NCBI GenBank assembly: GCA_964571765.1
Contig: CAZNDH010000001.1
Coordinates: 30,773 to 94,772, forward strand
Origin: an uncultured Acidimicrobiaceae bacterium
GTDB taxonomy: Bacteria > Actinomycetota > Acidimicrobiia > Spongiisociales > ZC4RG35
Direction: 5' to 3'
Length of the DNA stretch: 64,000 bases
Made by a program: the position numbers and the translations under genes. Numbering within the stretch: position 1 is the first letter of the stretch; each line of letters begins with the position of its first letter. A model generated the notes under the pieces. It had not been told where the DNA came from. It was given only the letters and a program-made list of their open reading frames with translations, and did not search any database. Positions 19,358-47,600 of the stretch are shown here, piece after piece.

Positions 19358-19593
19358 CTCAGTGGCGACCAGTTTGTGGCATCGGCCCCGCTTTCACAAA
19401 CCCCAAAGCCCGCTCACCTCGAAGGCATGGGGGTGCTCGATGGGCAGAGGGATCACCCTGGTGCTCGGGATGCTGGCGGGCACGCCGGTGGCGGGGAGGC
19501 TCGGGACAGTTTCGCGGGCGATCTTGTGCAAGACGTCAACTCTGGCTCGTTGTCCCTCACGATCCGCACCTGTGACCAGGGGGAAGGATCGGG

Positions 19594-19666
19594 CAGTCCC
19601 GACGGGATTCGAACCCGCGTTTCCGGCTTGAAAGGCCGGCGTCCTAGACCACTGGACGACGGGACC
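19594..19666 (-). tRNA. tRNA-Glu(TTC), CCA not encoded
   Basis: GGTCCCG/CGGGACT acceptor stem, CCGGC-CTTTCAA-GCCGG anticodon arm, GGTTCGAATCC T-loop; directly downstream of gltX. Confidence 0.96.
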
Positions 19667-19697
19667 GTGCCAGGGAAAGGTTACGGCCCGCGGGGCC

Positions 19698-33930: not shown

Positions 33931-34680
33931 TGACTCGACGAAGCTTGCCGGGTCGCCCCTAGCTCCGACCACCTCGACCAGGGCGGAGCCGACGACTATC
34001 CCGTCGACGTGGGCGGCAAGTGCCTCCACTTGCGACCGGGACCTGACCCCGAATCCGGCCATGAGCGGGCGAGAGGTCGACTCCCGGGCCTGGTCCAAGT
34101 AGTCGAGTAGCTCGTCGGGCAGGGCCAGGTCGCCTCCGGTGATCCCGGTGGTGGTCACCGCATAGAGGAACCCGCCGGTGGACCCACCCAGCGATGCCAT
34201 CCTCTCCGTAGGGGTGGCCGGTGAGACCAGACGAACCAGGTCGACTCGGGCCGGTGCCAGCACCTCCTCGAGCGGGCCACTCTCTTCGGGGGTGAGGTCG
34301 GGGACGATCAGCCCGGACACCCCGGCGCTGACAAGTCGCTCACCAAGACGGTCGAGGCCGTAGGCGAGGAAAGGGTTGTAATACCCCATGAGCAAATAGG
34401 GCGCCTCAAGGGAGTCGCCCACCCGGTCGAGCATGTCGAAGATCGACTCCAGGGTGATCCCTGTGCCCAGGGCGGAGAAGCCTGCCTCCTGGATGGTCCG
34501 CCCGTCGGCGATGGGATCGGTGAAAGGGACCCCGATCTCCACAACGTCGGCCACCGCGGCGACCCGGGCCAGGATGGTGGGAAACCCGTCCTCGGATGGG
34601 TAACCGGCCATCAGGTAGGCGCACACCGCCGGGCCATCGACCGAGCGGATCGCCTCCTCGATCGTCGCCTGCGAGCTCAT
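33919..34680 (-). CDS. trpA: tryptophan synthase alpha chain
   Basis: EIGVPFTDPIADG, MGYYNP, GFGV, VGSA. Confidence 0.95.
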   Translation of the reverse strand: MSSQATIEEAIRSVDGPAVCAYLMAGYPSEDGFPTILARVAAVADVVEIGVPFTDPIADGRTIQEAGFSALGTGITLESIFDMLDRVGDSLEAPYLLMGYYNPFLAYGLDRLGERLVSAGVSGLIVPDLTPEESGPLEEVLAPARVDLVRLVSPATPTERMASLGGSTGGFLYAVTTTGITGGDLALPDELLDYLDQARESTSRPLMAGFGVRSRSQVEALAAHVDGIVVGSALVEVVGARGDPASFVESLRP

Positions 34681-35879
34681 CCGGACCCCTCCTCGCCGAC
34701 GATCAGCCCCAAATCCTTGTCACCCCGGCCGGAGAGGCATATGAGGATCCTCGCCCCGGGATGCTCGGCCGCCCAGCGGCGAGCCCCGGCCAGGGCATGG
34801 GCCGACTCCAGGGCAGGGAGTATCCCCTCGAGCCGGGTGCACTCGTGGAGGGCCTCGAGCGCCTGGTCGTCATCGGCCTCGATGTAACCAGCCCGTCCCG
34901 TGTCGCGGAGCATGGCGTGCTCCGGGCCGACGCCCGGGTAGTCGAGTCCCGGGGCCACGGAGTGAGTGTCGGCCACCTGGCCGTCGCCGTCCTGAAGGAG
35001 CGGTGAGAACGCCCCGTGGAGGACACCGGGCACGCCCCGGCCCAAAGTGGCCGAATGGGAGGCCCCGCTTCCCCCGGCCTCGACCCCGAGCAGGGCCACC
35101 CCTGCATCGTGGACGAAGGGATGGAACATCCCGATGGCGTTCGAGCCACCCCCGACGCAGGCCACCACCACCCCGGGCAGCCCTCCGGTGGTTTCCTCGA
35201 ACTGGGCCTTGGCCTCGATGCCTATCACCGATTGGAAGGAGCGCACCATCCACGGATAAGGATGGGGACCAACCGCTGAGCCGAGCAGATAGTAGGTGCC
35301 GTCGGGGTCGGACACCCAGTCGCGCATCGCCTCGTTGATGGCCGCCCGAAGGGTCCGATCGGCCACGTCGACCTCGACCACCTCGGCACCGAGGAGCCTC
35401 ATCCGCTCCACGTTGGGCTTCTGGCGGACCACGTCGAGCGAGCCCATGTAGACCCGGCAGGGCAAGCCGACCCGAGCCGCCGCAGCCGCGGTGGCCACCC
35501 CGTGCTGACCCGCGCCCGTCTCGGCGATCACCCGGGATGCCCCCATCCGTCGGGCAAGGAGGGCCTGGCCGATTGCATTGTTGATCTTGTGGGCACCGGT
35601 GTGGCACAGGTCTTCACGCTTCAACCACACCTCGGCCGCCCACTCCCGGCCAAGACCGGGTGCAGCGGTGAGAGGGGTGGGTCGCCCCACGAAGTCGCGT
35701 AACTCGTCGCCGAGGGCAGCCCGGAACCGGGGGTCGGCGAAGGCTTCGAGCGTCGCCGCCTCGAGCCGCTCCAAGGCCGGGACCAGCGTTTCGGGCACAT
35801 ACCTACCCCCGTAGGCCCCGAAGCGGCCACCGACAGGTGGCGATCCTTCGAGAAATCCCTCGATGATGGTGGCGGTCAT
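34677..35879 (-). CDS. trpB: tryptophan synthase beta chain
   Basis: REDLCHTGAHKINN, ETGAGQHG, GLDYPGVGP, SGRGDKD. Confidence 0.96.
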   Translation of the reverse strand: MTATIIEGFLEGSPPVGGRFGAYGGRYVPETLVPALERLEAATLEAFADPRFRAALGDELRDFVGRPTPLTAAPGLGREWAAEVWLKREDLCHTGAHKINNAIGQALLARRMGASRVIAETGAGQHGVATAAAAARVGLPCRVYMGSLDVVRQKPNVERMRLLGAEVVEVDVADRTLRAAINEAMRDWVSDPDGTYYLLGSAVGPHPYPWMVRSFQSVIGIEAKAQFEETTGGLPGVVVACVGGGSNAIGMFHPFVHDAGVALLGVEAGGSGASHSATLGRGVPGVLHGAFSPLLQDGDGQVADTHSVAPGLDYPGVGPEHAMLRDTGRAGYIEADDDQALEALHECTRLEGILPALESAHALAGARRWAAEHPGARILICLSGRGDKDLGLIVGEEGSG

Positions 35880-36475
35880 CCCTGGCTCACCCTTTCCGCG
35901 GCACGCGCCGCCTCGACAAAGCGCCGGATCTTCTCAGGATCCTTGACACCGGGGAGCATCTCGACTCCGCTGCTGACATCGACCCCGAAGGGCCGTACCG
36001 CGGCGATCGCCCCGGCCACGTTGCCAGGGTCGAGACCACCGGCGAGAACCAGTCGGCGCTCCCGGGCAAGGCGGGCGGCCTCGCCCCAATCGGCGACCGC
36101 CCCGATACCGCTCACCGATCCCTCGTAGAGGATCATGCCCCCAAACATGGCGTCGGGAACCTGGTTGCCTTCCCTGAACACCGGTAGGAAGCCAACGCGT
36201 GGGGGAAGCTCGATCGGCGACCCGGCATCGGCCTGGACCATGTCGGGGGTGAAGACTTCGAGGACCCAATCGACATCGTCCTGGTGGGGGGTGAGGAACA
36301 CCGCAACCCGGATCACTTCCTCGGGGATGGCGGCGGAGATTCGCCGGGCCTCCTGGGGCGACACCCTTCGTGCCGAAGGGGCGAAGACCAGACCTATGGC
36401 ATCGGCTCCGGCCCGGGCGGCGGTGATCGCCGACTCCGGCTCGGTGATCCCGCATATCTTGACGAAGAGGCTCAC
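35876..36475 (-). CDS. trpF: phosphoribosylanthranilate isomerase
   Basis: VKICGIT, LAGGL, GVDVSSGVE. Confidence 0.93.
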   Translation of the reverse strand: MSLFVKICGITEPESAITAARAGADAIGLVFAPSARRVSPQEARRISAAIPEEVIRVAVFLTPHQDDVDWVLEVFTPDMVQADAGSPIELPPRVGFLPVFREGNQVPDAMFGGMILYEGSVSGIGAVADWGEAARLARERRLVLAGGLDPGNVAGAIAAVRPFGVDVSSGVEMLPGVKDPEKIRRFVEAARAAERVSQG

Positions 36476-37260
36476 CGTGCCCGGCTCCTAACCGCCTGGC
36501 GGCCGGCGGCGACCAGCCCGGCGACCAGCCTCGCCGGATCGTCGGTCGTGGAGAGCGAGGTGCCCACGAGCCCCATTCGGTAACCGAGGCCAGCCACCGC
36601 GGCCACGTCATCGGGGCCCTCGATGCCGCTCTCGGCAACGAGGACCAAGCCCGGAGGCACCAGGGGCGCCAGCCGCCGGAACCGGTCGAATTCGACCGAC
36701 AGGTCGGTGAGATCCCGGCAGTTGACCCCGAGGAGCACCGGGCGGTCGAGCACCGTCGAAGCCGTCTCGAGATCGGTTTGGTCGAACACCTCCACCAGGG
36801 GGAACATCCCCAGCTCCAGGGTGGCGTCGACCATCTCGACGAGAAGACTCCTACCGAGGATCCGGGTGATTATGAGGACGCCGGAGGCCCCATGCTCCCT
36901 GGCCTCGACGACCTGCTCCGGGGAAACCAGGAAGTCCTTACGCATCACAGGGATGTTCACCGCGGCGGCCACACCGGCCAGGTGGGTCAACGAGCCGTCG
37001 AAGACCTCGGGCTCGGTGAGCACCGAGATGGCGGCGGCCCCTCCCCTGGCAAACTCGATGGCCATGGCGACCACCCTGGCCAGGTCGTCGCCGGCGGGAG
37101 CGAGCCGGCCCGAAGCGGGGCCGCGCAGCTTGACCTCGGCGATCAGGTCGAAGCCGGCTGCGGAGAGCGCCAGCGGGATCACCGAGGGCATCGGCCGGGG
37201 TGGGACTGCGGTAACCCGGGCGCGGCTGGCTGCGGCCATGTCGGCGAGGAAGTCAGCCAA
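36472..37260 (-). CDS. trpC: indole-3-glycerol phosphate synthase
   Basis: IAEVK, ISVLTEP, RKDF, GVNCRDL, VAESGI; TTG start right after the trpD stop. Confidence 0.92.
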   Translation of the reverse strand: MADFLADMAAASRARVTAVPPRPMPSVIPLALSAAGFDLIAEVKLRGPASGRLAPAGDDLARVVAMAIEFARGGAAAISVLTEPEVFDGSLTHLAGVAAAVNIPVMRKDFLVSPEQVVEAREHGASGVLIITRILGRSLLVEMVDATLELGMFPLVEVFDQTDLETASTVLDRPVLLGVNCRDLTDLSVEFDRFRRLAPLVPPGLVLVAESGIEGPDDVAAVAGLGYRMGLVGTSLSTTDDPARLVAGLVAAGRQAVRSRAR

Positions 37261-37261
37261 C

Positions 37262-38281
37262 CTACGACCCCCCTTCCCCGCTGAAGGTGGCGATTCGCTC
37301 GAGCACCCCGCTCGCCCGCCCGTCGTCGATCGCCGCCGCCGCCTCGGCGATCCCCTCCCGGGGAGAATCGACCTTCCCCGAGACCCTGAGGGCCAGGGAG
37401 GCTCCGAGCACCAGGGCGTTGCGGTGGGCTCCCCGAGCGCCCTCCATGACCAGGCGCAACTCGGCGGCGTTGGCATCGGCATCCCCACCGGCCAGGTCTC
37501 CGGGCTGGCAGCGGGTCAGCCCCATGTCCAAGGGATCCTCGATCGACTCCCGGGTCGACCCGGGGGCCACCTCGATGAGGTGGTAGGGCCCGACCGGCGT
37601 GGGCTCGTCCCATCCGGGGGCGCCGTGGACCACGTAGGCCCGGTCCACATCCATGCCGGAGAGAGCCTCGGCGAGCCGACGGGCGCTCTCCAGACTGTTG
37701 GCTCCGATCACGGCGAACCCAGGCCCGGCAGGGTTGGCCAGGGGACCCACCAAGTTGAAGATGGTCCCTACCCCGAGAGCGCCCCGGACCGGGGCGATCG
37801 ACTTCATCGCCGGGTGGTAGTGGGGGGCGAAGAGGAAGGTGAAGCCGCTCGCCTCGAGCAGGGCCGCGGCTGCCTCACCAGCGAGGGGGATGCCCAGGCC
37901 CAGGGCGGCGAGCACGTCGGCGCTGCCGCTTCGGCTCGACACCGAGCGGTTGCCGTGCTTGACCACTGCCTGGCCCGCGGCCGCGGCGACCAAGGCGGCA
38001 CCTGTCGAGAGGTTGAGGCTCCCCGAGCGGTCCCCTCCGGTGCCGACGACGTCTACCGCCGAGGAGACATCACCTAGAGGGGGCCGCACCGCCCGGAGTC
38101 GGAGGGCGGTGGCAAAAGCCCGCAACTCGGTGGGGGTCTCACCCTTTGCCTTCAGCGCCACCAGCACCGCCCCAGCCATCACCGGGTCGGCCTGTGGATC
38201 GGTGAGATCCTCGAAGAGACCAGTGGCGGTCTCGTGGTCGAGGTGCTCCCCGGCCACCAGGAGTTCCAATACCTCCCTCAT
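37262..38281 (-). CDS. trpD: anthranilate phosphoribosyltransferase
   Basis: DVVGTGGD, KHGNRSVSSRSGSAD, FNLVGPLANP. Confidence 0.95.
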   Translation of the reverse strand: MREVLELLVAGEHLDHETATGLFEDLTDPQADPVMAGAVLVALKAKGETPTELRAFATALRLRAVRPPLGDVSSAVDVVGTGGDRSGSLNLSTGAALVAAAAGQAVVKHGNRSVSSRSGSADVLAALGLGIPLAGEAAAALLEASGFTFLFAPHYHPAMKSIAPVRGALGVGTIFNLVGPLANPAGPGFAVIGANSLESARRLAEALSGMDVDRAYVVHGAPGWDEPTPVGPYHLIEVAPGSTRESIEDPLDMGLTRCQPGDLAGGDADANAAELRLVMEGARGAHRNALVLGASLALRVSGKVDSPREGIAEAAAAIDDGRASGVLERIATFSGEGGS

Positions 38282-38886
38282 CGGGTGACCTCCCCCACTC
38301 TTGACCCGATCGGAGCCACCTCCATGGCCAGAAAGTTGTCGAGCAGACGACTGCCCTCGGGTGTGAGCACCGACTCCGGGTGGAACTGCACTCCCTCGAT
38401 GGGGAGCTCACGGTGGCGAACCCCCATCACCTCGCCGTCCCAAGTGGTGGCGGTCACCTCGAGTGTTTGGGGAAGCTGGTCCACCGCCAGTGAGTGGTAT
38501 CGCCCGGCGAGGAAGGGCTGGGGCATGCCCTGGTAAACACTCCGAGAGTCGTGGTGGACCTCGGACGCCTTGCCATGCATCAAGGACCGCGCCGACCCGA
38601 CAACACCACCGAACACCGCGGCGATGGCCTGGTGACCCAGGCACACACCGAGAATGGGGACCCGGCCCGCCGCCGCCGAGATGATCCCCATAGACGCTCC
38701 GGCGTGCTCCGGGCGCCCCGGACCGGGCGAGACCACCAGGTGGGTGGGCTCGAGCAGGTCGAGGTCGGCCACCTCGACCTGGTCGCTGTAGCGGACAGTG
38801 ACCTCGGCCCCCAGGGTGAGGAACGCCTGGACCAGGTTGTAGGTGAAGGAGTCGTAGTTGTCGACCATCAGAAGGTGGGCCCTCAC
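38278..38886 (-). CDS. trpG: anthranilate synthase component II
   Basis: DNYDSFTYNL, SPGPG, GVCLGHQ, QFHPES. Confidence 0.95.
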   Translation of the reverse strand: MRAHLLMVDNYDSFTYNLVQAFLTLGAEVTVRYSDQVEVADLDLLEPTHLVVSPGPGRPEHAGASMGIISAAAGRVPILGVCLGHQAIAAVFGGVVGSARSLMHGKASEVHHDSRSVYQGMPQPFLAGRYHSLAVDQLPQTLEVTATTWDGEVMGVRHRELPIEGVQFHPESVLTPEGSRLLDNFLAMEVAPIGSRVGEVTR

Positions 38887-40217
38887 AGTCCCTCCTCGGC
38901 CAGGACGAGGGCGGCGGCCATGGCGGCTCCCTTGGAGAGGACCTCGTGGTGCTCCCGCTCCGGGCTGGAGTCGGCCACGATGCCGGCGCCCGCCTGATAG
39001 GTGTAGCTGTCTCCCTCGAAGACGATGGTGCGGATGGTGATGGCATGGTCCATCGAGCCTTCACGCCCGAAGTACCCCACGGTGCCCGAGTAGAGACCCC
39101 GGGGAGCCGGCTCGAGCTGGTCGATGAGCTCGATGGCAGCCAGCTTGGGGGCGCCGACCACTGTGCCCGCAGGGAAGGTGGCGGCGAACAGGTCGAAGGC
39201 GTCGAGCCCGGGACGAATGTGGCCGTTGACCCCGCTCACCATGTGCATCACATGGCTGTATCGCTCGATGCTCCGATACGGGTCTACCTTGACCGAGCCG
39301 GCCACCGCTACCCGGCCCAGGTCGTTACGGGCCAGATCGACCAGCATGACGTGCTCGGCGGCCTCCTTGGGGTCGGCGAGCAGCTCCTCTTCCAGACGGT
39401 GATCCTCCTCGGTGTCGGCGCCCCGGGGCCGGGTGCCGGCGATCGGCCACAGTTGGGCTTCATCCCCGTTCAACCGGACCAGGGCCTCCGGCGAGGAACC
39501 GACCATTTGTTGCTCCCCGAAGTCGAGGAAGTACATGTACGGAGACGGATTGAGGAGGCGTAGGGCCCGGTACACCTGGAAGGGGTGGAGGTCGTGACGA
39601 CCGGAGAAGCCGATGGAGAGCACCAGCTGGTAGACGTCACCGGCGGCGATACTCCCCCGTGCCAGCTCCACCTTGGCAAGGAAGTCCGGCCGGCTGATGG
39701 TGGGCTGGGGAGGTTGATGGGATCCCGCTGCAGGCCCGGGGGGCAAAGGCCCGGCGAGGAGGGAGACCACCTCACCACGCAGTGCCGGTCGCGATCTCTC
39801 GTCACCATGGAGCAGGGCAATGCGTCTGGTGAGATGGTCGAACACCAGGACCGAACCGGCCGCCATGTAGGAGGCGACCGGCCGGTCCACCACACGGGGA
39901 GACGGGAGCCGATGGAATGAGCGCACCAGGTCGAACCCGGCCACACCCACCAGCCCACCGGAGAATCGCCCGGTTCCCAGGGACGGGTGAAGGGTCGGCA
40001 CCGCGACGAGCCCCTCGCGGAGTCGGGAAAGCACCGCCTCGGTGGGACCGGCCTCCAGGTCGAGGCGGGTCGTATCCCCAAAGCCGATGAACGAGTACCT
40101 CCCCAGGTTGCCTCCCTCCACCGACTCCAACAGGTACCGGGGACCGAGCGGGGCCAGCTTGAGGTAGGCCGACACCGGTGTATGCAGGTCGGCTGCTATG
40201 TCGAATGGTGGGTGCAT
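38883..40217 (-). CDS. trpE: anthranilate synthase component I
   Basis: TPVSAY, LLES, NPSPYM, EHVMLVDLARND, FPAGTVVGAPK. Confidence 0.94.
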   Translation of the reverse strand: MHPPFDIAADLHTPVSAYLKLAPLGPRYLLESVEGGNLGRYSFIGFGDTTRLDLEAGPTEAVLSRLREGLVAVPTLHPSLGTGRFSGGLVGVAGFDLVRSFHRLPSPRVVDRPVASYMAAGSVLVFDHLTRRIALLHGDERSRPALRGEVVSLLAGPLPPGPAAGSHQPPQPTISRPDFLAKVELARGSIAAGDVYQLVLSIGFSGRHDLHPFQVYRALRLLNPSPYMYFLDFGEQQMVGSSPEALVRLNGDEAQLWPIAGTRPRGADTEEDHRLEEELLADPKEAAEHVMLVDLARNDLGRVAVAGSVKVDPYRSIERYSHVMHMVSGVNGHIRPGLDAFDLFAATFPAGTVVGAPKLAAIELIDQLEPAPRGLYSGTVGYFGREGSMDHAITIRTIVFEGDSYTYQAGAGIVADSSPEREHHEVLSKGAAMAAALVLAEEGL

Positions 40218-40257
40218 CGCTCCCGTTCGGTCCGGGGATCGGGAGATGTGCCCTTCC

Positions 40258-40292
40258 AAGAAGAAACCCACCTCACGATCCGAGGTGGGCTT
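40258..40292 (-). terminator. trp attenuator terminator (3:4 hairpin)
   Basis: Minus strand AAGCCCACCTC-GGATCGT-GAGGTGGGTTT followed by CTTCTT. Confidence 0.85.
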
Positions 40293-40320
40293 GGTTCAGA
40301 CGAACTGCTGGGCACCACCT

Positions 40321-40368
40321 CTAGGAGGTGTGCCACCAGCCGGTTGCCAGGTGCAGACTCTGACTCAT
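40321..40368 (-). CDS. trpL: trp operon leader peptide MSQSLHLATGWWHTS
   Basis: Tandem TGG TGG, GWWxTS end like known TrpL peptides, overlaps attenuator segment 1. Confidence 0.9.
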   Translation of the reverse strand: MSQSLHLATGWWHTS

Positions 40369-40376
40369 TGCCGGGG

Positions 40377-40405
40377 AATGTAAGCCGACGGGGCGTGATC
40401 GTCAA
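40377..40405 (-). promoter_or_regulatory. sigma70-type promoter of trpL
   Basis: TTGACG-N17-TACATT, 8 nt before the trpL ATG. Confidence 0.75.
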
Positions 40406-40423
40406 GACCAACCATCAACTGTC

Positions 40424-40452
40424 TTGCCGGGTAGCTACCCGGTTGCTAGCTT
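40424..40452 (+). promoter_or_regulatory. sigma70-type promoter of hisL
   Basis: TTGCCG-N17-TAGCTT with extended TG; contains the 16-bp palindrome CCGGGTAGCTACCCGG. Confidence 0.65.
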
Positions 40453-40461
40453 GATCGCCCC

Positions 40462-40518
40462 ATGAACTGTTCGTTCGCCCATGCCGGCCACCATCACCAC
40501 CCGCTCCGGGTCGGTTGA
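40462..40518 (+). CDS. hisL: his operon leader peptide MNCSFAHAGHHHHPLRVG
   Basis: 5 His codons, 4 of them consecutive, upstream of a terminator and hisG. Confidence 0.88.
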   Translation: MNCSFAHAGHHHHPLRVG

Positions 40519-40580
40519 CAGTGCCCAGCTGAGCTAACGCACACTCCGTCAGCCGACCCAGGTGGTCGGCTTTCTCATTG
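40508..40580 (+). terminator. his attenuator (antiterminator and terminator)
   Basis: Terminator AGCCGACC-CAGGT-GGTCGGCT followed by TTCTCATT; competing 12-bp pairing GGGTCGGTTGAC (40508-40519) with GTCAGCCGACCC (40548-40559). Confidence 0.85.
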
Positions 40581-40620
40581 TTGGGGCCGCCCACCCCGGG
40601 TCCTGAGACCAAGGCCCACA

Positions 40621-41499
40621 ATGACATCACTCACCGAAAACACCGACATCCTCCACCTCGCGGTGCCCAAGGGCCGGATCGAGTCGGGAGTGGTCGACCT
40701 GCTCGCCGCGGCGGGCATACGGCTCCGCTCCGGTCCGCGCGGCTATCGGCCGATCAGCTCGGCCCCGGGTCTGGAAGTGAAGCTGCTCAAGCCCCAGAAC
40801 ATCGTGGAGATGCTCGCCGTCGGCTCCCGCGACGTCGGGTTCGCCGGAGCCGACTGGGTGGCGGAGAAGACGGCGGACGTGGTCGAACTGCTCGACACCG
40901 GTCTCGACCCGGTCCGGGTGGTGGCCGCCGCCCCAGAGGGCCTGCTCGACGGGGGGTCACTCCCCCCACGGCGGCTGGTGGTGGCCTCCGAGCTGGAGAG
41001 GCTGTCTCGATCGTGGGTATCCGACCGCGGGCTGGACGCCACCTTCGTCCGCAGCTACGGGGCCACCGAGGTCTTCCCTCCCGAGGACGCCGACATCATC
41101 GTCGACATCATGGATACCGGGGAGACCCTGTCGGCCAACGGCTTGGTAGTGGTCGATGAGCTGATGACCTCCTCCACCCGGCTGTACGCCAGCCGCAAGG
41201 CGATCGAAGACCCGAGGAAGAAGGCGGCGATCGACGGGCTCGCCCTGAGCCTCCGATCCGTGCTCGAGGCCCGAGGGAGGGCGATGGTCGAGCTCAATGT
41301 GTCCGCTGACGACCTCGAGGGCGTCATCGAGATCCTCCCCTCTATGCGGGAGCCTACGATCGCCACCCTCCACGGCGGCTCCGGCCTGGCCGTCAAGGCG
41401 GCGGTCCCCCGTGCCGAGCTGCCTTCGCTGATCCCCCGGCTGAAGGAGAGGGGCGCCACCGATATCGCCGTCTCACGCTTGGAGCAGATCGTCCCATGA
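40621..41499 (+). CDS. hisG: ATP phosphoribosyltransferase, long form
   Basis: LAVPKGR, GATE, DIIVD..DTGETL..NGL, C-terminal regulatory domain. Confidence 0.94.
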   Translation: MTSLTENTDILHLAVPKGRIESGVVDLLAAAGIRLRSGPRGYRPISSAPGLEVKLLKPQNIVEMLAVGSRDVGFAGADWVAEKTADVVELLDTGLDPVRVVAAAPEGLLDGGSLPPRRLVVASELERLSRSWVSDRGLDATFVRSYGATEVFPPEDADIIVDIMDTGETLSANGLVVVDELMTSSTRLYASRKAIEDPRKKAAIDGLALSLRSVLEARGRAMVELNVSADDLEGVIEILPSMREPTIATLHGGSGLAVKAAVPRAELPSLIPRLKERGATDIAVSRLEQIVP

Positions 41500-43169
41500 G
41501 CCGACCCGACACGTATCGGCCTCCGGTCTTCACCGCGCCCATCGACCTCGACCTGTCACGCAACGAAGGGAGGCCGGGGCCGGCGGCGCGATCCGCCCTG
41601 GCCGGGGACCTCGAGGGCAGAGTGGGTCGCTACCCGGACACCACCAAGCTGCGTGAGGGATTGGCGGCCCGCTTCAGCGTCGACGAAAGCCGGGTGCTTG
41701 TGACCGCCGGTGGTGACGACGCCCTCTTCCGCTGCTTCCTCTCCCGACGGGGCGGGGCGGTGGTATCCACCAGCCCCACCTTCGAGATGATCCCCCGCTA
41801 CGCCGCCCAAACCCGCATGACCCTCGGCGAGGTCGAGTGGTGGGAGGGCCAACTCCCGGTGGAGGACCTCATCGCCGCCGGTGGCCCCGACGACATGGTG
41901 GTGATCGTCTCGCCCAACAACCCGACTGGGGCGGTGATCACCTCCGACGACCTGGCCAGGCTCGCCAAGCGGTTCGCCCTGGTGGTGTGGGACGCCGCCT
42001 ACTCCGAGTTCGCCGACGAGGACCTGACGCCCGCCGCCCTGGACCTGGGCAACCTGGTCATGGTGCGAACCATGTCGAAGGCCTACGGCCTCGCCGGTCT
42101 CCGGGTGGGCTGCCTGGTGGGGAGCGCAGCGAACATCGAGGCGATCGGGTCGTACGGGAACCCCTATCCTCTTTCGGCGGTATCCGCGGAAGTGGCGAGG
42201 CGGGCCCTCGACGACCCCGGGCCGACGGCGCGGTTCGTCGACCGGGTCCGGGTCGAGCGCGCCGAGTTGACCGGTCTCCTCCCCGGGCTGGGTGCCCGTC
42301 CCCTTGCCTCCCAGGCCAACTTCGTGCTCGCTCGGTTCCCCGACGCCGACTGGGTCACCGCGGTGGCAGCCTCCTTGGGTGTCGGCCTTAGGACATTCCC
42401 GAGGAGGGCCGGCCTGGATGACTGTGTCCGTATCACCCTTCCGGGGGACGAGACCGACTTTCGCCGGCTGGTCACCACCCTGGCTGTAGCCACCCGGCCC
42501 GAGGCGGTCATCTTCGACCTCGACGGGGTCCTCGCCGACGTCTCCGGCTCCTATCGGGCAGCGATCATCGAGACCGCGGCCAGCTTCGGGGTCGAGGTCA
42601 CCCCGGCGATGATCGGCGAGGCCAAAGCGGAGGGGAACGCCAACGACGACTGGGACCTCACCCGCCGGCTGTGTCGGGCCGCCGGGGCCGACGTGCCTCT
42701 GCAGATGGTCAAGGACCGGTTCGAGCAGGTCTACCAGGGCAACGAATCGGCTCCGGGTCTCAAGGATCGCGAGCGACTCCTCGTCGACCGTAATCACCTG
42801 GCGGCTCTGGCGAGCCGCCTTCCCCTGGCTGTGGTGACCGGAAGGCCCCGCGCCGACGCCGACACCTTCCTCGATCGCTTCGGCCTGGACAACCTGCTCG
42901 GTGTGGTGATCACCCGGGAAGATGCTCCGATGAAGCCCGACCCGGGCCCGGTGACCACCGCGCTGGCCGCGCTCGGTGTCGATCGAGCGTGGATGCTTGG
43001 TGACACCCGTGACGACCTGGAGGCGGCCCGGGCCGCCGGTGTGGTGCCGATCGGGGTGATCGCCCCGGGGGACGATCCGGCTCAGGCCCGGGCCACCCTG
43101 GCGACGGCGGCTGCGGTGCTCGACAACGCCGGGGAGATCATGGAGGTGCTCGATGCCCAGGAAGTCTGA
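41496..43169 (+). CDS. hisC: histidinol-phosphate aminotransferase fused to a HAD phosphatase (putative histidinol-phosphatase)
   Basis: SPNNPTG, DAAY, RTMSKAYGLAGLRVG; then FDLDGVLADVS, VVTGRP, KPDP, LGDTRDD. Confidence 0.9.
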   Translation: MSRPDTYRPPVFTAPIDLDLSRNEGRPGPAARSALAGDLEGRVGRYPDTTKLREGLAARFSVDESRVLVTAGGDDALFRCFLSRRGGAVVSTSPTFEMIPRYAAQTRMTLGEVEWWEGQLPVEDLIAAGGPDDMVVIVSPNNPTGAVITSDDLARLAKRFALVVWDAAYSEFADEDLTPAALDLGNLVMVRTMSKAYGLAGLRVGCLVGSAANIEAIGSYGNPYPLSAVSAEVARRALDDPGPTARFVDRVRVERAELTGLLPGLGARPLASQANFVLARFPDADWVTAVAASLGVGLRTFPRRAGLDDCVRITLPGDETDFRRLVTTLAVATRPEAVIFDLDGVLADVSGSYRAAIIETAASFGVEVTPAMIGEAKAEGNANDDWDLTRRLCRAAGADVPLQMVKDRFEQVYQGNESAPGLKDRERLLVDRNHLAALASRLPLAVVTGRPRADADTFLDRFGLDNLLGVVITREDAPMKPDPGPVTTALAALGVDRAWMLGDTRDDLEAARAAGVVPIGVIAPGDDPAQARATLATAAAVLDNAGEIMEVLDAQEV

Positions 43170-43737
43170 GATCGCCCGGGAGACCGGCGAGACCAGCGTG
43201 GAGGTTGCCCTGGACCTCGATGGCGAGGGCAGGAGCGAAGTGGCCACCGGGATCGGATTCCTCGACCACATGATCTCCTCCCTAGCCCGCCACTCCCGAA
43301 TCGACATCAGGCTCATGGCTCAGGGAGACCTGGTGGTCGATGACCACCACACCGCCGAGGACTGTGCCATCACCCTGGGGCGTGCCCTCGACCAGGCGCT
43401 GGGCGATCGATCGGGGATCCACCGCTTCGGCTACGCCTACGCACCCCTCGACGAGGCAATGTGCCGAGCCGTGATCGACTTGTCGGGGCGCCCATGGCCC
43501 GAGATCCACATCGACTTTCGTCGAGAAACGGTAGGCGAGTTGGCCACCGAGAACCTGGTCCACTTTCTGCGCAGCCTCGCTGTCGAGGGCCGTCTGGCCC
43601 TCCATGTCGACCTGATCCGGGGAGACAACGACCACCATAAGGCAGAGGCCGCCTTCAAGGCAGTAGCCCAGGCGCTGCGTCAAGCCGTCGCCCTCGACGG
43701 TGACGGAATCCCCAGCACGAAGGGATCCCTGGGATGA
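43153..43737 (+). CDS. hisB: imidazoleglycerol-phosphate dehydratase
   Basis: RETGET, GFLDHM, DDHHTAED, NDHHKAEA. Confidence 0.95.
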   Translation: MPRKSEIARETGETSVEVALDLDGEGRSEVATGIGFLDHMISSLARHSRIDIRLMAQGDLVVDDHHTAEDCAITLGRALDQALGDRSGIHRFGYAYAPLDEAMCRAVIDLSGRPWPEIHIDFRRETVGELATENLVHFLRSLAVEGRLALHVDLIRGDNDHHKAEAAFKAVAQALRQAVALDGDGIPSTKGSLG

Positions 43738-44339
43738 GCTCTCCTCTCGCCCTGGTACCCACCGGCACAGCAAACACCGCGTCGGTGGTGGCCGCCTTCG
43801 GCCGGCTGGGTATCGACGCGGATGTGACCGGCGATCCCCAGATGATCGGGTCGGCGCAACGAGTGGTGCTCCCCGGTGTGGGCAGCTTCGGCGCCGCCGG
43901 TGACACCCTGGCCAAGGCGGGGCTGATCGCTGCATTGAGACAGAGGGTCGACGAGGGCCGGGCAACCCTGGCGGTCTGTGTGGGCATGCAGCTCCTCGCC
44001 GAGGAGAGCGAGGAGAGCCCCGGGGCCCCCGGCCTCGGGGTGGTCCCAGCCAGGATCACCAGGTTCTCCGGGCCGGTGAGGGTGCCTCAGCTGGGGTGGA
44101 ACCGGGTGCAGTCATCGCCGGCCTCCCGCCTTGTCCGCCCAGGTTGGGCTTACTTCGCCAACTCCTACCGGCTCGAGGAGCCACCCCCAGGCTGGGAGAG
44201 CGCGATCTGTGACCACGGGGGACCATTCGTCGCTGCCATGGAGCGGGGTGGAGTGCTCGCCTGCCAGTTCCATCCCGAGCTGTCGGGACAATGGGGACTC
44301 GACCTACTAGGTCGGTGGCTCGAGGGAGGTGGCTGGTGA
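43734..44339 (+). CDS. hisH: imidazole glycerol phosphate synthase, glutaminase subunit
   Basis: LPGVGSF, VCVGMQ, PQLGWN, QFHPE. Confidence 0.93.
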   Translation: MSSPLALVPTGTANTASVVAAFGRLGIDADVTGDPQMIGSAQRVVLPGVGSFGAAGDTLAKAGLIAALRQRVDEGRATLAVCVGMQLLAEESEESPGAPGLGVVPARITRFSGPVRVPQLGWNRVQSSPASRLVRPGWAYFANSYRLEEPPPGWESAICDHGGPFVAAMERGGVLACQFHPELSGQWGLDLLGRWLEGGGW

Positions 44340-45091
44340 GCCTGGCGGTCCGGGTGGTGCCCTGTCTCGACATCGACCGGGGAAGGGTGGTCAAGGGGGT
44401 CCGTTTCGCCGGGCTCCGCGACGCCGGCGACCCGGTGGCCTGCGCCACTGCCTACCAGGAGCAAGGAGCCGACGAGGTGGTCCTCCTCGACGTGTCGGCC
44501 ACTCCAGAAGCCCGGGACCACAATCTGGTAACGGTGGAGGAAGTGCGCCAGTCGCTGGCGATCCCGCTCACCGTGGGTGGAGGTGTTCGCTCGGTCGAAG
44601 ACGCTTCCCGCCTGCTCGAGGCCGGCGCCGACAAGGTCGGCGTCAACACCGCGGCGGTGGCCGATCCCGGGCTGATCACCGAGCTCGCCCTGATATTCGG
44701 CGCCCAGTGCACCGTCCTCGCCGTCGACGCTGCAGCCAGTGATGGAGGCTGGAAGGTGGTAGTGAGGAGCGGCTCGGTACACACCGGGCTCGACGTGGTC
44801 GACTGGTGCCGCCGGGGGGAGGCCCTGGGGGCAGGGGAGATCCTCCTCACCAGCTGGGACCGCGACGGGACAGGGGAGGGATACGACCTCTCTCTCCTCG
44901 AGAAGGTCTGTGGGGCTGTTGGCCTTCCGGTGATCGCCTCCGGTGGCGCCAGAGGCTGGCCTCACATGGTCGACGCGGTGGCCGCCGGGGCCTCGGCGGT
45001 CCTGGTTGCCTCGATCCTCCACGACGGGGAGACCACGGTCAGCGCCCTGAAAGAGGGTCTGGCCTCGGCTGGAGTGGCGGTCCGGCCATGA
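44336..45091 (+). CDS. hisF: imidazole glycerol phosphate synthase, cyclase subunit
   Basis: PCLD, VVKG, GAGEILLTSWDRDGT; GTGA overlap with hisH. Confidence 0.95.
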   Translation: MSLAVRVVPCLDIDRGRVVKGVRFAGLRDAGDPVACATAYQEQGADEVVLLDVSATPEARDHNLVTVEEVRQSLAIPLTVGGGVRSVEDASRLLEAGADKVGVNTAAVADPGLITELALIFGAQCTVLAVDAAASDGGWKVVVRSGSVHTGLDVVDWCRRGEALGAGEILLTSWDRDGTGEGYDLSLLEKVCGAVGLPVIASGGARGWPHMVDAVAAGASAVLVASILHDGETTVSALKEGLASAGVAVRP

Positions 45092-46350
45092 TCGTCCCCT
45101 CGATCGACATAGTCGCCGGCCAGGCTGTTCAGCTGGTGGGAGGGGAGGAGGAGGTGGTGGAGGCCGGTGATCCCCGGCCTCTGATGCAACGCTTCTCCCG
45201 GATGGGCGAGGTGGCCGTGGTGGACATCGACGCCGCCCGTGGCGAGGGGGACAACGGTGAAATGATCGCCGCGCTGTGCGCCATGGGGCGGGTCAGGGTG
45301 GGAGGCGGTGTGAGGAACCTGGACAAGGCACGATGGTGGCTCGACGCCGGCGCCGAGAAGGTGGTCATAGGCACTGCGGCCAGGGCGGGATTCCTCTCCG
45401 AGCTACCGCCGGAACGGGTGGTGGTCGCCCTCGATGCCCGTCGAGGTGAGGTGGTCACCCACGGATGGCGAACCTCGACCGGGTTCGGGCTCCTCGAGTC
45501 GATCACCGAGCTCCGTGGCTCGTGCGGAGGCTTCCTGGTGACTTTCGTGGAACGCGAAGGGCGGCTGGCGGGGACCGACATGGACATGGCGCGTCGAGTG
45601 GTCGAGGCGGCCGGGAAAGCCAGCGTCACCATCGCCGGGGGGGTGACCACCCCGGAAGAAGTCGCCGCCCTCGACGCCATCGGCGCCGATGCCCAGGTGG
45701 GGATGGCCCTCTATACCGGGGCCATGGAGCTGGTCGACGCCTTCGCTGCACCACTGCGCAGCGACCGTGGCGACGGGCTGTGGGCCACGGTGGTCACCGA
45801 CCGGTCGGGTAAGGCCCTGGGGCTCGCTTGGTCCGACCGGGAGAGCCTCGCCGAGGTGATCGACACCGGGCGGGGCGTCTACCACAGCAGGTCAAGGGGC
45901 CTCTGGGTCAAAGGCGAGACCTCGGGCAACACCCAGGACGTGGTGGCGGTGGACATCGATTGTGACCGTGACGCCATCCGGGTCACCGTCGACCAGCAGG
46001 GCCCCGGCTTCTGCCATCGGGGCACCCAGAGCTGCTGGGGTGAGGACCGAGGATTGACCCGGCTGGGCCGGCGTCTCGACGAGATCGTGGCAACGAGACC
46101 CGAGGGGTCCAACACCGCCCTACTGGCGTCCGATGCCGAGCTGCTCGGGGCCAAGCTGGTCGAGGAGGCGGGGGAGCTGGCCGCTGCCCACGACGCCAGG
46201 GAGGTCACCGAGGAGGCGGCCGACCTCCTCTACTTCCTGCTCACCCGTCTAGCAGTCGCCGGGGTCGGCCTGGAGCAGGTGGAGGCAGTGCTCGACGCTC
46301 GGGAGAAGCGGATCACCAGGAGACCGATGCAGACCAGGGGATCCCGGTGA
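45088..46350 (+). CDS. HisA-HisI-HisE fusion
   Basis: MIVPSID..GQAVQL, VGGGVR, VIGTAA (HisA); SRSR.LWVKGETSG, DCDRD, CH..TQSC (HisI); KLVEEAGE, EAADLLY (HisE). Confidence 0.88.
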   Translation: MIVPSIDIVAGQAVQLVGGEEEVVEAGDPRPLMQRFSRMGEVAVVDIDAARGEGDNGEMIAALCAMGRVRVGGGVRNLDKARWWLDAGAEKVVIGTAARAGFLSELPPERVVVALDARRGEVVTHGWRTSTGFGLLESITELRGSCGGFLVTFVEREGRLAGTDMDMARRVVEAAGKASVTIAGGVTTPEEVAALDAIGADAQVGMALYTGAMELVDAFAAPLRSDRGDGLWATVVTDRSGKALGLAWSDRESLAEVIDTGRGVYHSRSRGLWVKGETSGNTQDVVAVDIDCDRDAIRVTVDQQGPGFCHRGTQSCWGEDRGLTRLGRRLDEIVATRPEGSNTALLASDAELLGAKLVEEAGELAAAHDAREVTEEAADLLYFLLTRLAVAGVGLEQVEAVLDAREKRITRRPMQTRGSR

Positions 46351-47600
46351 GTCTGCTCAGGCGGGTGGGCCCGGGCGACCCGGTGCTCGAGGTGCGTCGC
46401 AGACCGGTTGAGCCGGACACCTTGGCCGCGGCTGCCTGCATCGTCGAGGAGGTGCGGGCCGGCGGTGAAGTGGCGCTCCGCAGCCTGGCCAGCCGACTCG
46501 ACGAGCTGGCCGACCATGATCCGCTGGTCATCGGGCGCGACGAGCTCGAGGATGCCTTCCACCGGCTCCCAAGGGGTCAGCGCGACCTTCTCGAGAGGGT
46601 GGCGGCCCGGATAGCCGCTTTCGCCCGTGCCCAACTCACCGGACTCTCCGACCTGGAGACCGAGGTGCCCGGGGGTCGGGCGGGGCACCGGTGGCTCCCG
46701 GTGTCGACGGTGGGCGCCTATGCCCCCGGTGGCCGCAATCCGCTCCCTTCGTCGGTGCTGATGACCGTGGTCCCGGCACGGGTCGCCGGTGTCGACGAGG
46801 TTTGGGTTTCCTCACCTCGTCCCACCCGGGTCAGCCTGGGAGCGGCGTGGGTCGCCGGCGCAGACGGCTTGCTCCCGGTGGGCGGGGCGCATGCCATAGC
46901 CTCTCTGGCCTTCGGAACGGTGACACCGGCGGTCGACCTGGTCGTCGGTCCGGGGAACCAATGGGTGACCGCGGCCAAGAAGCACCTGTTCGGGGAGGTC
47001 GGTATCGATGGGTTGGCCGGCCCCAGCGAGATCGCGGTGCTGGCCGATGGCGAGGCCGACCCCTCCCTGGTCGCCGCAGACCTTCTCGCTCAGGCGGAGC
47101 ACGATCCCGATGCGTTCCCCGTCCTGGTCACCGACAGCGCTCTCCTGGCGGATCAGGTCGAGGTGGAGCTCCGCCGGATGCTCGCCGACCTGCCCACCGC
47201 CAAGGTGGCCACCGCCGCTCTCAGCGGTGGGCTGTCGGTGGTGGTGGGTGACATCAGCGAGATGCTCTCGGTGGTGAACCGCCTCGCTCCCGAGCACGTC
47301 GCCCTCCACACATCCGACCCCGACGTCGTTCTCGAGGGAATCACCTCCTACGGCTCGGTCTTCCTCGGGCCGGGCAGCACCGAGGCCTTCGCCGACTACG
47401 GGGCGGGACCCAACCACGTCCTCCCCACCGGCGGCGGAGCCCGGTTCCAGTCGGGGTTATCGGTGCTCACCTTCCTCCGTTCCCCCACCTGGCTCCGCCT
47501 CGACCGGCCCACCGACCTGGTGGCCGACACCGCCCTGCTCGCCCGGCTCGAAGGGCTCGAAGCCCACGCCCGGGCCGCCGAGGCACGACTCGAGAGCTGA
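46347..47600 (+). CDS. hisD: histidinol dehydrogenase
   Basis: YAPGG, GPGN, AGPSE, QAEHD, APEH, DYGAGPNHVLPT. Confidence 0.95.
   Translation: MSLLRRVGPGDPVLEVRRRPVEPDTLAAAACIVEEVRAGGEVALRSLASRLDELADHDPLVIGRDELEDAFHRLPRGQRDLLERVAARIAAFARAQLTGLSDLETEVPGGRAGHRWLPVSTVGAYAPGGRNPLPSSVLMTVVPARVAGVDEVWVSSPRPTRVSLGAAWVAGADGLLPVGGAHAIASLAFGTVTPAVDLVVGPGNQWVTAAKKHLFGEVGIDGLAGPSEIAVLADGEADPSLVAADLLAQAEHDPDAFPVLVTDSALLADQVEVELRRMLADLPTAKVATAALSGGLSVVVGDISEMLSVVNRLAPEHVALHTSDPDVVLEGITSYGSVFLGPGSTEAFADYGAGPNHVLPTGGGARFQSGLSVLTFLRSPTWLRLDRPTDLVADTALLARLEGLEAHARAAEARLES

What the first reader, a model, noticed from the sequence alone, without database searches (positions are those of the whole stretch)
40258..40620. 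Twin back-to-back attenuators controlling divergent trp and his operons
Seen: within ~360 bp there are two terminators, two leader peptides whose ATGs are only 94 bp apart (40368 minus, 40462 plus), and two promoters whose -35 boxes are 18 bp apart. Both pathways consume PRPP. Inference: a single regulatory hub where divergent promoters may be coupled by polymerase competition or supercoiling while each operon is gated by its own charged tRNA. I do not know of this arrangement having been described.
Basis: partly seen in the sequence, partly recalled or inferred. Interest (0 to 1): 0.85.

Follow-up and report, generated by a model that had tools for sequence, protein, structure and literature searches.

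The report
Back-to-back trp and his attenuators
Two textbook-style leader-peptide attenuators, one for tryptophan and one for histidine, sit back to back between divergent trp and his operons in a soil Acidimicrobiia genome; each is an old, conserved element, but their adjacency looks like a recent, incidental rearrangement.

Summary
The 403-bp spacer (40218-40620) lies between a complete trpEGDCFBA operon (minus strand) and a complete his operon starting with hisG (plus strand). It holds a WW leader ORF, an HHHH leader ORF, two terminators with overlapping antiterminators, and two promoters whose -35 boxes are 18 bp apart. Each unit (promoter, near-leaderless leader ORF, attenuator) recurs upstream of the same type of hisG or trpE across the order. 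His-run leaders occur in 79 of 95 distinct upstream regions and Trp-run leaders in 20 of 22. Terminator helices are 93-98% paired, with some compensatory changes. The adjacency is real: independent contigs from two studies span it, and a sister species (G011) shares it. It is also rare. It occurs in 1 of 23 class-level genomes that carry both gene types and in 0 of 80 other hisG loci. In G011 the -35 boxes are 120 bp apart rather than 18. TrpE of this genus does not form one clade (AU p 0.003), which suggests operon movement. I read it as two independent classical attenuators juxtaposed by rearrangement. The "coupled hub" idea is untested and unsupported by conservation. No RNA data were available.

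The parts
33919..40217 (-). trp operon trpE(38883-40217)-trpG-trpD-trpC-trpF-trpB-trpA(33919-34680)
   Evidence: NCBIfam hits (trpE_most 4.9e-128, below its curated cutoff; trpG_papA, trpD, TrpC, TrpF, trpB and trpA found). It is the only trpE-like match in G000.
40258..40290 (-). trp terminator (segments 3:4): stem 40290-40281 / 40275-40266, loop GAUCG, U-tract UUCUUCUU 40265-40258
   Evidence: Fold gives -18.2 kcal/mol. It is in the MFE and centroid structures. 93.0% of 171 cells are paired in 19 relatives. It aligns to the terminator of Rfam Trp_leader (19.7 bits, below the gathering score of 41).
40307..40321 (-). trp segment 2 (GAGGUGGUGCCCAGC). Its GAGGUGG pairs with CCACCUC of segment 3 (antiterminator) or with segment 1.
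   Evidence: The 2:3 fold gives -16.9 kcal/mol. 94.7% of 133 cells are paired, 2 pairs show compensatory change, and 0 of 500 shuffles reach the observed value.
40325..40340 (-). trp segment 1 (GCUGGUGGCACACCUC), containing the two Trp codons at 40338-40333
   Evidence: The 1:2 fold gives -19.0 kcal/mol. This helix is only 66.0% paired across relatives, against 36-56% for slid controls.
40321..40368 (-). trp leader ORF MSQSLHLATGWWHTS*
   Evidence: WW or WWW leader ORFs occur upstream of 20 of 22 distinct trpE-type loci. There is no Shine-Dalgarno sequence, and the -10 box ends 8 nt before the ATG.
40377..40405 (-). trp promoter: -35 TTGACG (40405-40400), 17-nt spacer, -10 TACATT (40382-40377)
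   Evidence: Promoter scan. TTGAC is present in 16 of 20 aligned trp-leader upstream regions, counted by eye from the print. The -35 box is conserved in G011.
40424..40452 (+). his promoter: -35 TTGCCG (40424-40429), 17-nt spacer, -10 TAGCTT (40447-40452)
   Evidence: A TANNNT hexamer ends 9-10 nt before the leader ATG in 58 of 66 his-leader upstream regions, with a TTGCC-like -35 box. The -10 sequence TTGCTAGCTT is identical in G011. The consensus scan did not call it.
40427..40442 (.). perfect 16-bp palindrome CCGGGTAGCTACCCGG inside the his promoter spacer (function unknown)
   Evidence: Read. It is the only exact copy in G000 and is absent from G011.
40462..40518 (+). his leader ORF MNCSFAHAGHHHHPLRVG*, with the His run at 40489-40500
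   Evidence: His-run leader ORFs occur in 79 of 95 distinct hisG-type upstream regions. Codon positions 1-2 (CA) of the run are invariant or nearly so, while the third positions vary.
40494..40503 (+). his segment 1 (last His codons plus the Pro codon), which pairs with segment B
   Evidence: Fold gives -10.4 kcal/mol. For the family-type hairpin, 3 of 4 pairs are paired in at least 62 of 66 sequences.
40507..40519 (+). his segment B (CGGGUCGGUUGAC), the 5' arm of the antiterminator. It contains the leader stop codon UGA at 40516-40518.
   Evidence: The B:C fold gives -26.8 kcal/mol. The core 7 pairs are kept in nearly all of 66 relatives.
40548..40582 (+). his segment C (40548-40559) and terminator C:D: stem 40551-40558 / 40564-40571, then tail UUCUCAUUGUU
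   Evidence: Terminator scan. Fold gives -14.3 kcal/mol. 98.1% of 594 cells are paired, with 3 pairs showing compensatory change.
40621..47600 (+). his operon: hisG (40621-41499, long form), hisC fused to a HAD hydrolase, hisB, hisH, hisF, hisA-hisIE fusion, hisD
   Evidence: NCBIfam hits. It is the only hisG match in G000.

Best explanation
The spacer holds two independent classical ribosome-mediated transcription attenuators. Each is a self-contained unit of about 200 bp. A sigma-70-type promoter has its -10 box ending 8-9 nt before the leader ATG, so the leader mRNA is leaderless or nearly so. The leader ORF carries tandem regulatory codons: UGG UGG for trp, and CAC CAU CAC CAC for his. Three or four RNA segments can form either an intrinsic terminator or a mutually exclusive antiterminator.

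When charged tRNA-Trp or tRNA-His is scarce, the ribosome stalls on the run. This keeps segment 1 from pairing with segment 2, so segment 2 pairs with the 5' arm of the terminator and RNA polymerase reads into trpE or hisG. When the amino acid is plentiful, the ribosome reaches the stop codon, which lies inside or directly at segment 2. The terminator then forms.

Shown here: the sequence elements, their energies, and their conservation in relatives. Inferred: translation of the leaders, the transcription starts, and the response to tRNA charging.

The two units are back to back because of a lineage-specific rearrangement in the common ancestor of G000 and G011. This was probably movement of a trp operon together with its own control region. 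I see no sign that the proximity itself is a selected regulatory device.
For: Gene content. Leader ORFs.

Alternative structures: for trp, 1:2 is -19.0, 2:3 is -16.9 and 3:4 is -18.2 kcal/mol. For his, 1:2 is -10.4, B:C is -26.8 and C:D is -14.3 kcal/mol. With a 28-nt ribosome mask, a stall with His codons 10-12 in the A site gives the antiterminator, while His13 or the stop codon gives the terminator.

Conservation of the leaders: 79 of 95 distinct hisG-type upstream regions have an ORF of 8-30 aa with at least 3 consecutive His. 20 of 22 trpE-type regions have at least 2 consecutive Trp.

Conservation of the helices: the his terminator is 98.1% paired with 3 compensatory pairs. The his antiterminator core is kept in 64-66 of 66 sequences for 6 pairs. 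The trp terminator is 93.0% paired. The trp antiterminator is 94.7% paired, with 2 compensatory pairs and 0 of 500 shuffles reaching it.

Coding signature: His codon positions 1-2 are invariant or nearly so, and the third positions are free.

Promoters: a TANNNT hexamer ends 9-10 nt before the his leader ATG in 58 of 66 regions.

Adjacency is real: single contigs from runs X4 and X5 (two studies) cover 39600-41200 with 2 differences each, and G011 shares the adjacency.

Adjacency is rare and its spacing is not kept: 1 of 23 class-level genomes with both gene types, 0 of 80 further hisG loci, and a -35 gap of 120 bp in G011 against 18 bp here.

Operon movement: TrpE sequences of the genus fall in three places on the tree, and holding them together is rejected (p-AU 0.0034).

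Established knowledge: trp attenuation by leader peptides has experimental support in Corynebacterium glutamicum and Streptomyces venezuelae (stated in PMC4833913, passages read).
Against: There are no RNA or transcription-start data. No RNA run holding this DNA was listed.

For trp, an equilibrium fold with the ribosome mask still gives the terminator, so antitermination must be kinetic, as in the E. coli model. The trp 1:2 helix is only 66% paired across relatives.

The Rfam Trp_leader score is below its gathering score (19.7 against 41), and His_leader gave no match at E up to 10.

The his -10 and -35 boxes are weak matches to the E. coli consensus, and the scan did not call them.

The U-tracts are interrupted (UUUCUUCUU, UUUCUCAUUGUU).

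The AU test group was the genus label, but I ran the test after seeing the tree.

The contigs may come from the same soil population as the MAG.
Confidence: 0.85

Rival explanations
1. Coupled hub. Because the -35 boxes are only 18 bp apart, the two promoters influence each other, through negative supercoiling generated by divergent transcription or through competition for the shared upstream DNA. Basal expression of the two PRPP-consuming pathways would then be coordinated, with each attenuator adding amino-acid-specific gating.
For: The geometry is real: the -35 boxes are 18 bp apart, and the predicted starts are about 89 bp apart. The arrangement persists in two species. From recall, not from any call here: supercoiling coupling of close divergent promoters is documented for ilvY-ilvC in E. 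coli.
Against: Neither the spacing nor the intervening DNA is conserved between the only two genomes that share the arrangement (120 bp against 18 bp). The other 22 class-level genomes with both operon types, and 80 further hisG loci, keep the operons apart. The core promoter elements do not overlap.
Confidence: 0.1
2. The elements act mainly by another route than intrinsic termination. Possibilities are Rho-dependent termination, control of trpE or hisG translation, or leader RNAs or peptides acting in trans. Alternatively one of them is decaying and no longer regulates.
For: The U-tracts are imperfect. A population variant at 40326 changes the last trp leader codon and breaks one 1:2 pair. 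A trans-acting attenuator RNA is known in Sinorhizobium (PMC6614838, abstract seen in the listing).
Against: The G+C-rich stems followed by U-rich tails are conserved in 66 and 19 relatives, and the antiterminator arm overlaps the terminator arm. The terminators lie 40-50 nt upstream of the start codons and do not include them.
Confidence: 0.04
3. The adjacency is an assembly or binning artefact that joins two unrelated contigs.
For: The genome is a MAG of 79 contigs.
Against: Contigs assembled separately from runs of two studies span the whole junction. A different species, G011 (HisG 87% and TrpE 80% identical), has the same divergent pair on one contig. There is no compositional break.
Confidence: 0.01

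Closest known systems
E. coli trp operon attenuator (trpL; Rfam Trp_leader RF00513)
   Same: A short leader has two adjacent Trp codons three codons before the stop. The peptide ends GWWHTS; my recall is that E. coli TrpL ends GWWRTS. There are four segments forming 1:2, 2:3 and 3:4 helices, followed by a U-tract and then trpE. The Rfam model aligns end to end.
   Different: The score of 19.7 bits is below the gathering score of 41, so it is not a member by Rfam's criterion. The leader has no Shine-Dalgarno sequence and starts 8 nt after the -10 box (near-leaderless). The host is an actinobacterium with 67% G+C.
Enterobacterial his operon attenuator (hisL; Rfam His_leader RF00514)
   Same: A His-run leader ORF lies upstream of hisG. 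The terminator and antiterminator are mutually exclusive. The logic depends on where the ribosome sits.
   Different: There is no Rfam match at E up to 10. It has 4 consecutive His codons (5 in all); my recall is that E. coli has 7. The architecture is simpler, with three helices, and the stop codon lies inside the 5' arm of the antiterminator. The leader ORF is near-leaderless.
Actinobacterial leader-peptide attenuators (Corynebacterium glutamicum trpE, leuA, ilvB, aroF; Streptomyces venezuelae trpEG)
   Same: Same phylum and same mechanism. Leader peptides upstream of amino-acid operons were detected by RNA-seq in C. glutamicum (PMC3890552, passages read).
   Different: The his operon of C. 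glutamicum is described as T-box controlled (PMC9413887, passages read). A 2005 survey saw no conserved RNA element upstream of actinobacterial his operons (PMC1262725, passage read). The His-leader type found here is common in one order of Acidimicrobiia. A 2015 conference paper on His leader peptides in Actinobacteria is cited in PMC4833913, but I could not read it.
Close divergent promoter pairs coupled by supercoiling (e.g. ilvY-ilvC of E. coli; recalled, not from any call)
   Same: The promoters are back to back, less than 100 bp apart.
   Different: No coupling has been shown here. Both sides here are attenuator-controlled biosynthetic operons, not a regulator-target pair.

Membership tests
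Classical ribosome-mediated (leader-peptide) transcription attenuator | A short ORF with tandem codons for the amino acid made by the downstream operon | tested here: met
   WW upstream of trpE and HHHH upstream of hisG. This is conserved in 20 of 22 and 79 of 95 distinct related upstream regions.
Classical ribosome-mediated (leader-peptide) transcription attenuator | An intrinsic terminator between the leader ORF and the first structural gene | tested here: met
   The terminators are 98.1% and 93.0% paired in relatives.
Classical ribosome-mediated (leader-peptide) transcription attenuator | An antiterminator that uses the 5' arm of the terminator and is mutually exclusive with it | tested here: met
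Classical ribosome-mediated (leader-peptide) transcription attenuator | A ribosome stalled on the regulatory codons favours the antiterminator, and a ribosome at the stop codon favours the terminator | tested here: inconclusive
   In silico ribosome masks reproduce this for his. For trp the equilibrium fold keeps the terminator, so a kinetic argument is needed.
Classical ribosome-mediated (leader-peptide) transcription attenuator | Read-through responds to charged tRNA in vivo or in vitro | not testable with these tools
   No RNA run was listed, and the organism is uncultured.
Rfam Trp_leader RF00513 | Covariance-model score at or above the gathering score (41 bits) | tested here: not met
   19.7 bits, E 0.71.
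Rfam His_leader RF00514 | Covariance-model score at or above the gathering score | tested here: not met
   No match at E up to 10 in 39500-41500.
T-box leader | A match to the T-box covariance model | tested here: not met
   No T-box match among the 4 hits at E up to 10.

The most novel reading that the evidence does not exclude
In G000 the two promoters, with -35 boxes 18 bp apart and starts about 89 bp apart, are physically coupled through shared upstream DNA and transcription-generated supercoiling. Initiation of the two PRPP-consuming pathways would then be co-set, and two tRNA-specific attenuators would split the output. This would make a compact two-input control node carried on a 13.7-kb Trp+His prototrophy block, in a genus where most members lack these operons.
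Probability: 0.1. Interest if true: 0.5.

Novelty: new member of a known kind. Interest (0 to 1): 0.3.

Why it matters
The mechanism is the textbook one, so the main value lies in annotation and evolution. First, leader-peptide attenuation of both his and trp operons, with near-leaderless leader ORFs, is widespread in one order of uncultured soil Acidimicrobiia. The literature I could read describes actinobacterial his control as T-box based or unknown. Second, it gives a clean natural example of two complete promoter-leader-attenuator modules moved as units and placed back to back. The pair G000 (18-bp gap) and G011 (120-bp gap) would be a ready-made test of whether close divergent promoters influence each other. 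Third, in this genus the two operons are accessory: hisG is found in 4 of 12 genomes and trpE in 5 of 12. That bears on amino-acid auxotrophy in streamlined soil actinobacteria.

Tried and rejected
The Rfam scan of 39500-41500 at E up to 10 gave only a sub-threshold Trp_leader hit. It gave no His_leader and no T-box hit, so I did not file either element under an Rfam family.

The consensus scan missed the minus-strand terminator and the his promoter. I relied on folds and on comparative alignments instead.

An RNA-level check failed. No RNA holder was listed for this stretch, so nothing can be said on expression or transcription starts.

Genomic-island idea: there is no tRNA next to the cluster (the only tRNA is at 19591-19667) and no clear G+C break. 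I dropped it.

Palindrome 40427-40442 as a repeated operator: the only exact copy in G000 is this one, plus 4 sites with 2 mismatches. I did not pursue it.

The G000-specific pairing of 40483-40492 with the 3' arm of the his terminator appears in the full-length MFE. It is not conserved in the family alignment, so I did not use it in the model.

I did not reconstruct the rearrangement path between G003 (operons 50 kb apart) and G000.

Supplementary files of the papers were not consulted. The supplements of PMC9413887 and PMC1262725 could list further his or trp attenuators.

Rows dropped or filtered:
- Alignment A3 used 19 of the 20 trp leader regions. L015 (G003) was left out because its leader is of a different, longer type.
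- Alignment A2 used the 66 distinct his regions whose hisG is at least 67% identical, out of the 79.
- The leader filter (at least 3 consecutive His, 8-30 aa) missed a real variant leader in G006 (HGHHYH) and a 34-aa WW leader in G001.
- In one search, 3 of the 80 loci had less than 700 bp upstream of hisG, so adjacency could not be assessed for them.

Unpublished genomes: G027 and G370 are flagged unpublished. G370 is one of the 23 genomes counted as having both gene types on different contigs. G027 adds one distant trpE match to the tally. No other claim rests on them.

Full report
**What is there.** The window comes from a 2.17-Mb, 79-contig MAG. Its closest hisG relatives are records titled Acidimicrobiia. 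Positions 40218-40620 form a 403-bp spacer between two divergent operons. On the minus strand lies a complete trp operon: trpE 38883-40217, then trpG, trpD, trpC, trpF, trpB and trpA down to 33919. On the plus strand lies a complete his operon: a long-form hisG at 40621-41499, a hisC-HAD fusion, hisB, hisH, hisF, a hisA-hisIE fusion, and hisD up to 47600. Each is the only copy in the genome.

**Check of the observation.**
- The minus-strand ORF 40368..40321 reads MSQSLHLATGWWHTS*.
- The plus-strand ORF 40462..40518 reads MNCSFAHAGHHHHPLRVG*.
- The two ATGs are 94 bp apart.
- The his terminator (stem 40551-40571 plus a U-rich tail) was found by the scan.
- The trp terminator (stem 40290-40266, UUCUUCUU to 40258) was not flagged by that scan. 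It is in the MFE and centroid folds and folds at -18.2 kcal/mol on its own. It also aligns to the terminator of Rfam's Trp_leader model.
- The trp promoter TTGACG-17-TACATT (40405-40377) was the only promoter-like site in the region, against 0.0 expected from shuffles.
- The his promoter TTGCCG-17-TAGCTT (40424-40452) is too far from the E. coli consensus for the scan, but comparison with relatives supports it (see below).
- The two -35 boxes are 18 bp apart.

**How each unit should work.**

In the trp leader RNA, segment 1 (40340-40325) includes the two UGG codons. It pairs with segment 2 (40321-40307) at -19.0 kcal/mol. The GAGGUGG of segment 2 can instead pair with CCACCUC of segment 3 at -16.9 kcal/mol. 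Segment 3 pairs with segment 4 as the terminator at -18.2 kcal/mol. The stop codon sits in the loop of the 1:2 hairpin, three codons after the Trp pair. My recall is that this is the layout of E. coli trpL.

In the his leader RNA, the last His codons plus the Pro codon (40494-40503) pair with segment B (40507-40519) at -10.4 kcal/mol. Segment B contains the stop codon. B pairs with C (40548-40559) as a 12-bp antiterminator at -26.8 kcal/mol. C pairs with D as the terminator at -14.3 kcal/mol.

I masked 28 nt to imitate a ribosome. A stall with His codons 10, 11 or 12 in the A site gives the antiterminator. A ribosome on His13 or on the stop codon gives the terminator. For trp the equilibrium fold keeps the terminator whatever the mask, so antitermination has to be kinetic: 2:3 forms before segment 4 is made. 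That is also the accepted view for E. coli. Translation of the leaders and the response to tRNA charging are inferred, not shown.

**Comparative support for each unit.** Searches of 151 genomes of the order show that this type of HisG (57-79% identical) occurs in 21 genomes. The other HisG matches are at most 36% identical. This type of TrpE (57-69% identical) occurs in 19 genomes, and the next best match is 50% identical. I added 80 loci from the public genome collection.

Among distinct upstream regions, 79 of 95 hisG-type regions carry an ORF of 8-30 aa with at least three consecutive His, typically M..FAHAHHHHHPSRVG. Among trpE-type regions, 20 of 22 carry an ORF with WW or WWW. Two of the apparent misses are variant leaders: HGHHYH in G006 and a 34-aa WW leader in G001.

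In the alignment of 66 his leaders (A2):
- The CA of the His codons is invariant or nearly so, while the third positions vary. This is the signature of selection on the codons themselves.
- The terminator is paired in 98.1% of 594 cells, with compensatory changes at 3 pairs.
- Six core antiterminator pairs are kept in 64-66 of 66 sequences.

In 19 trp leaders (A3):
- The terminator is 93.0% paired.
- The GAGGUGG:CCACCUC antiterminator is 94.7% paired, with 2 compensatory pairs, and no shuffle out of 500 reaches it.
- The 1:2 helix is weaker, at 66.0% paired against 36-56% for slid controls.

**Promoters and leaderless leaders.** I aligned the 45 nt before the leader ATGs. A TANNNT hexamer ends 9 or 10 nt before the his leader ATG in 58 of 66 sequences, preceded by a TTGCC-like -35 box. 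The trp leaders have TTGAC in 16 of 20 sequences (my count from the print) and a TA-rich hexamer 7-10 nt before the ATG. Neither leader has a Shine-Dalgarno sequence. The leader mRNAs should therefore begin at, or a few nt before, the ATG. This is usual for Actinobacteria. RNA-seq in C. glutamicum detected leader peptides for trpE, leuA, ilvB and aroF (PMC3890552, passages read).

**Is the adjacency real?** Yes. Logan contigs from run X4 (study P2) and run X5 (study P1) each cover 39600-41200 in one piece, with two differences each. Shorter contigs from X6 and X7 bridge the centre. These soils may hold the very population the MAG came from. A different species of the same genus, G011 (HisG 87% and TrpE 80% identical), has the same divergent pair with both leaders on one contig.

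**Is the adjacency a conserved device?** No.
- Within the genus of 12 genomes, hisG is found in 4 and trpE in 5. Three have both, and in G003 the two lie 50 kb apart on one contig.
- In a class-level sample of 401 genomes, 31 have this hisG type and 33 this trpE type. Of the 23 that have both, only G000 has them adjacent. In three others they share a contig at 12 kb, 82 kb and 747 kb apart. In the remaining 19 they are on different contigs. G370, one of the 23, is flagged unpublished.
- None of 80 further hisG loci with up to 4 kb of flank holds trpE. Three of these have too little upstream DNA to judge.
- Between G000 and G011 the leaders, the attenuators, the trp -35 box and the his -10 box align. 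The DNA between the promoters does not. In G011 the leader ATGs are 198 bp apart and the -35 boxes 120 bp apart, against 94 bp and 18 bp here.

**How the arrangement may have arisen.** On a TrpE tree, the five sequences of the genus fall in three places. G000 and G011 sit with sequences from other families. G001 and G003 form a deep separate pair. G009 sits with another genus. Forcing all five into one clade costs 46 log-likelihood units (p-AU 0.0034). The group was the genus label, but I tested it after seeing the tree. The leader types follow the tree: short WW leaders in G000 and G011, long RWWRRST... leaders in G001 and G003. HisG of the genus is unresolved. The simplest reading is that a trp operon with its own control region moved next to the his control region in the ancestor of G000 and G011. 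This is inference.

**Comparison with what is known.** The mechanism is that of the E. coli trp and his attenuators and of actinobacterial trp attenuators. By Rfam's criteria neither element is a member of Trp_leader (19.7 bits against a gathering score of 41) or His_leader (no match at E up to 10).

On the literature:
- For his operons in Actinobacteria, the papers I could read speak of T-boxes (PMC9413887, passages).
- A 2005 survey reported no conserved RNA element there (PMC1262725, passage).
- A 2015 conference paper on His leader peptides in Actinobacteria is cited in PMC4833913, but I could not read it.
- Full-text searches for divergent trp and his attenuators, for Acidimicrobiia plus attenuator, and for trpE/hisG/divergently/leader peptide found nothing relevant. 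Subscription journals and supplements were not searched.

**Verdict.** The interpretation as twin attenuators is right. The "hub" idea is unsupported. These are new members of a well-known kind, in a rare and apparently incidental back-to-back arrangement. Interest is modest at 0.3.

Noticed in passing
window 40427-40442: A perfect 16-bp palindrome, CCGGGTAGCTACCCGG, fills most of the spacer of the his promoter. It overlaps the last 3 nt of the -35 box. It is the only exact copy in the genome and is absent from G011. It could be an operator or a scar of the rearrangement.
   Followed up: partly
window 41496-43169 (+): The hisC-like aminotransferase (residues 17-329) is fused to a TIGR01548-family HAD hydrolase (residues 337-514). 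This is a candidate for the histidinol-phosphate phosphatase step, fused to hisC.
   Followed up: no
window 44806-46350 (+): One open frame carries HisA (residues 96-314), HisI (311-413) and HisE (418-496), giving an apparent hisA-hisIE fusion. The listed GTG start overlaps hisF, so the true start is probably near 45088.
   Followed up: no
genus of G000 (G001-G011): hisG was found in only 4 of 12 genomes of the genus, and trpE in only 5 of 12. The genomes are 62-97% complete. Six genomes show neither gene. The operons look accessory in this genus, so many members may be His and/or Trp auxotrophs.
   Followed up: partly
order-level loci L021-L049; L138-L159: Two HisG types coexist in the order. 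One is 57-79% identical to the window's and carries a His leader. The other is at most 36% identical. Outside the class, the nearest relatives of the window's type are 62-68% identical. They come from MAGs labelled Planctomycetota, Myxococcota, Proteobacteria and others, and some of them have His-run leaders too.
   Followed up: partly
TrpE of G000, G001, G003, G009, G011: TrpE sequences of one genus fall in three separate places on the tree, and monophyly is rejected (p-AU 0.0034). This suggests lateral exchange of trp operons within the order.
   Followed up: yes
window 40326: A population variant A>G appears in contigs of runs X4 and X6. It changes the last trp leader codon from UCC (Ser) to CCC (Pro) and turns a U-A pair of the 1:2 helix into a C-A mismatch.
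   Followed up: no
L008/L062 (G001), L015 (G003): The trp leaders of G001 and G003 are of a different, longer type (...RWWRRST... 24-34 aa). Their downstream structure was not analysed.
   Followed up: no
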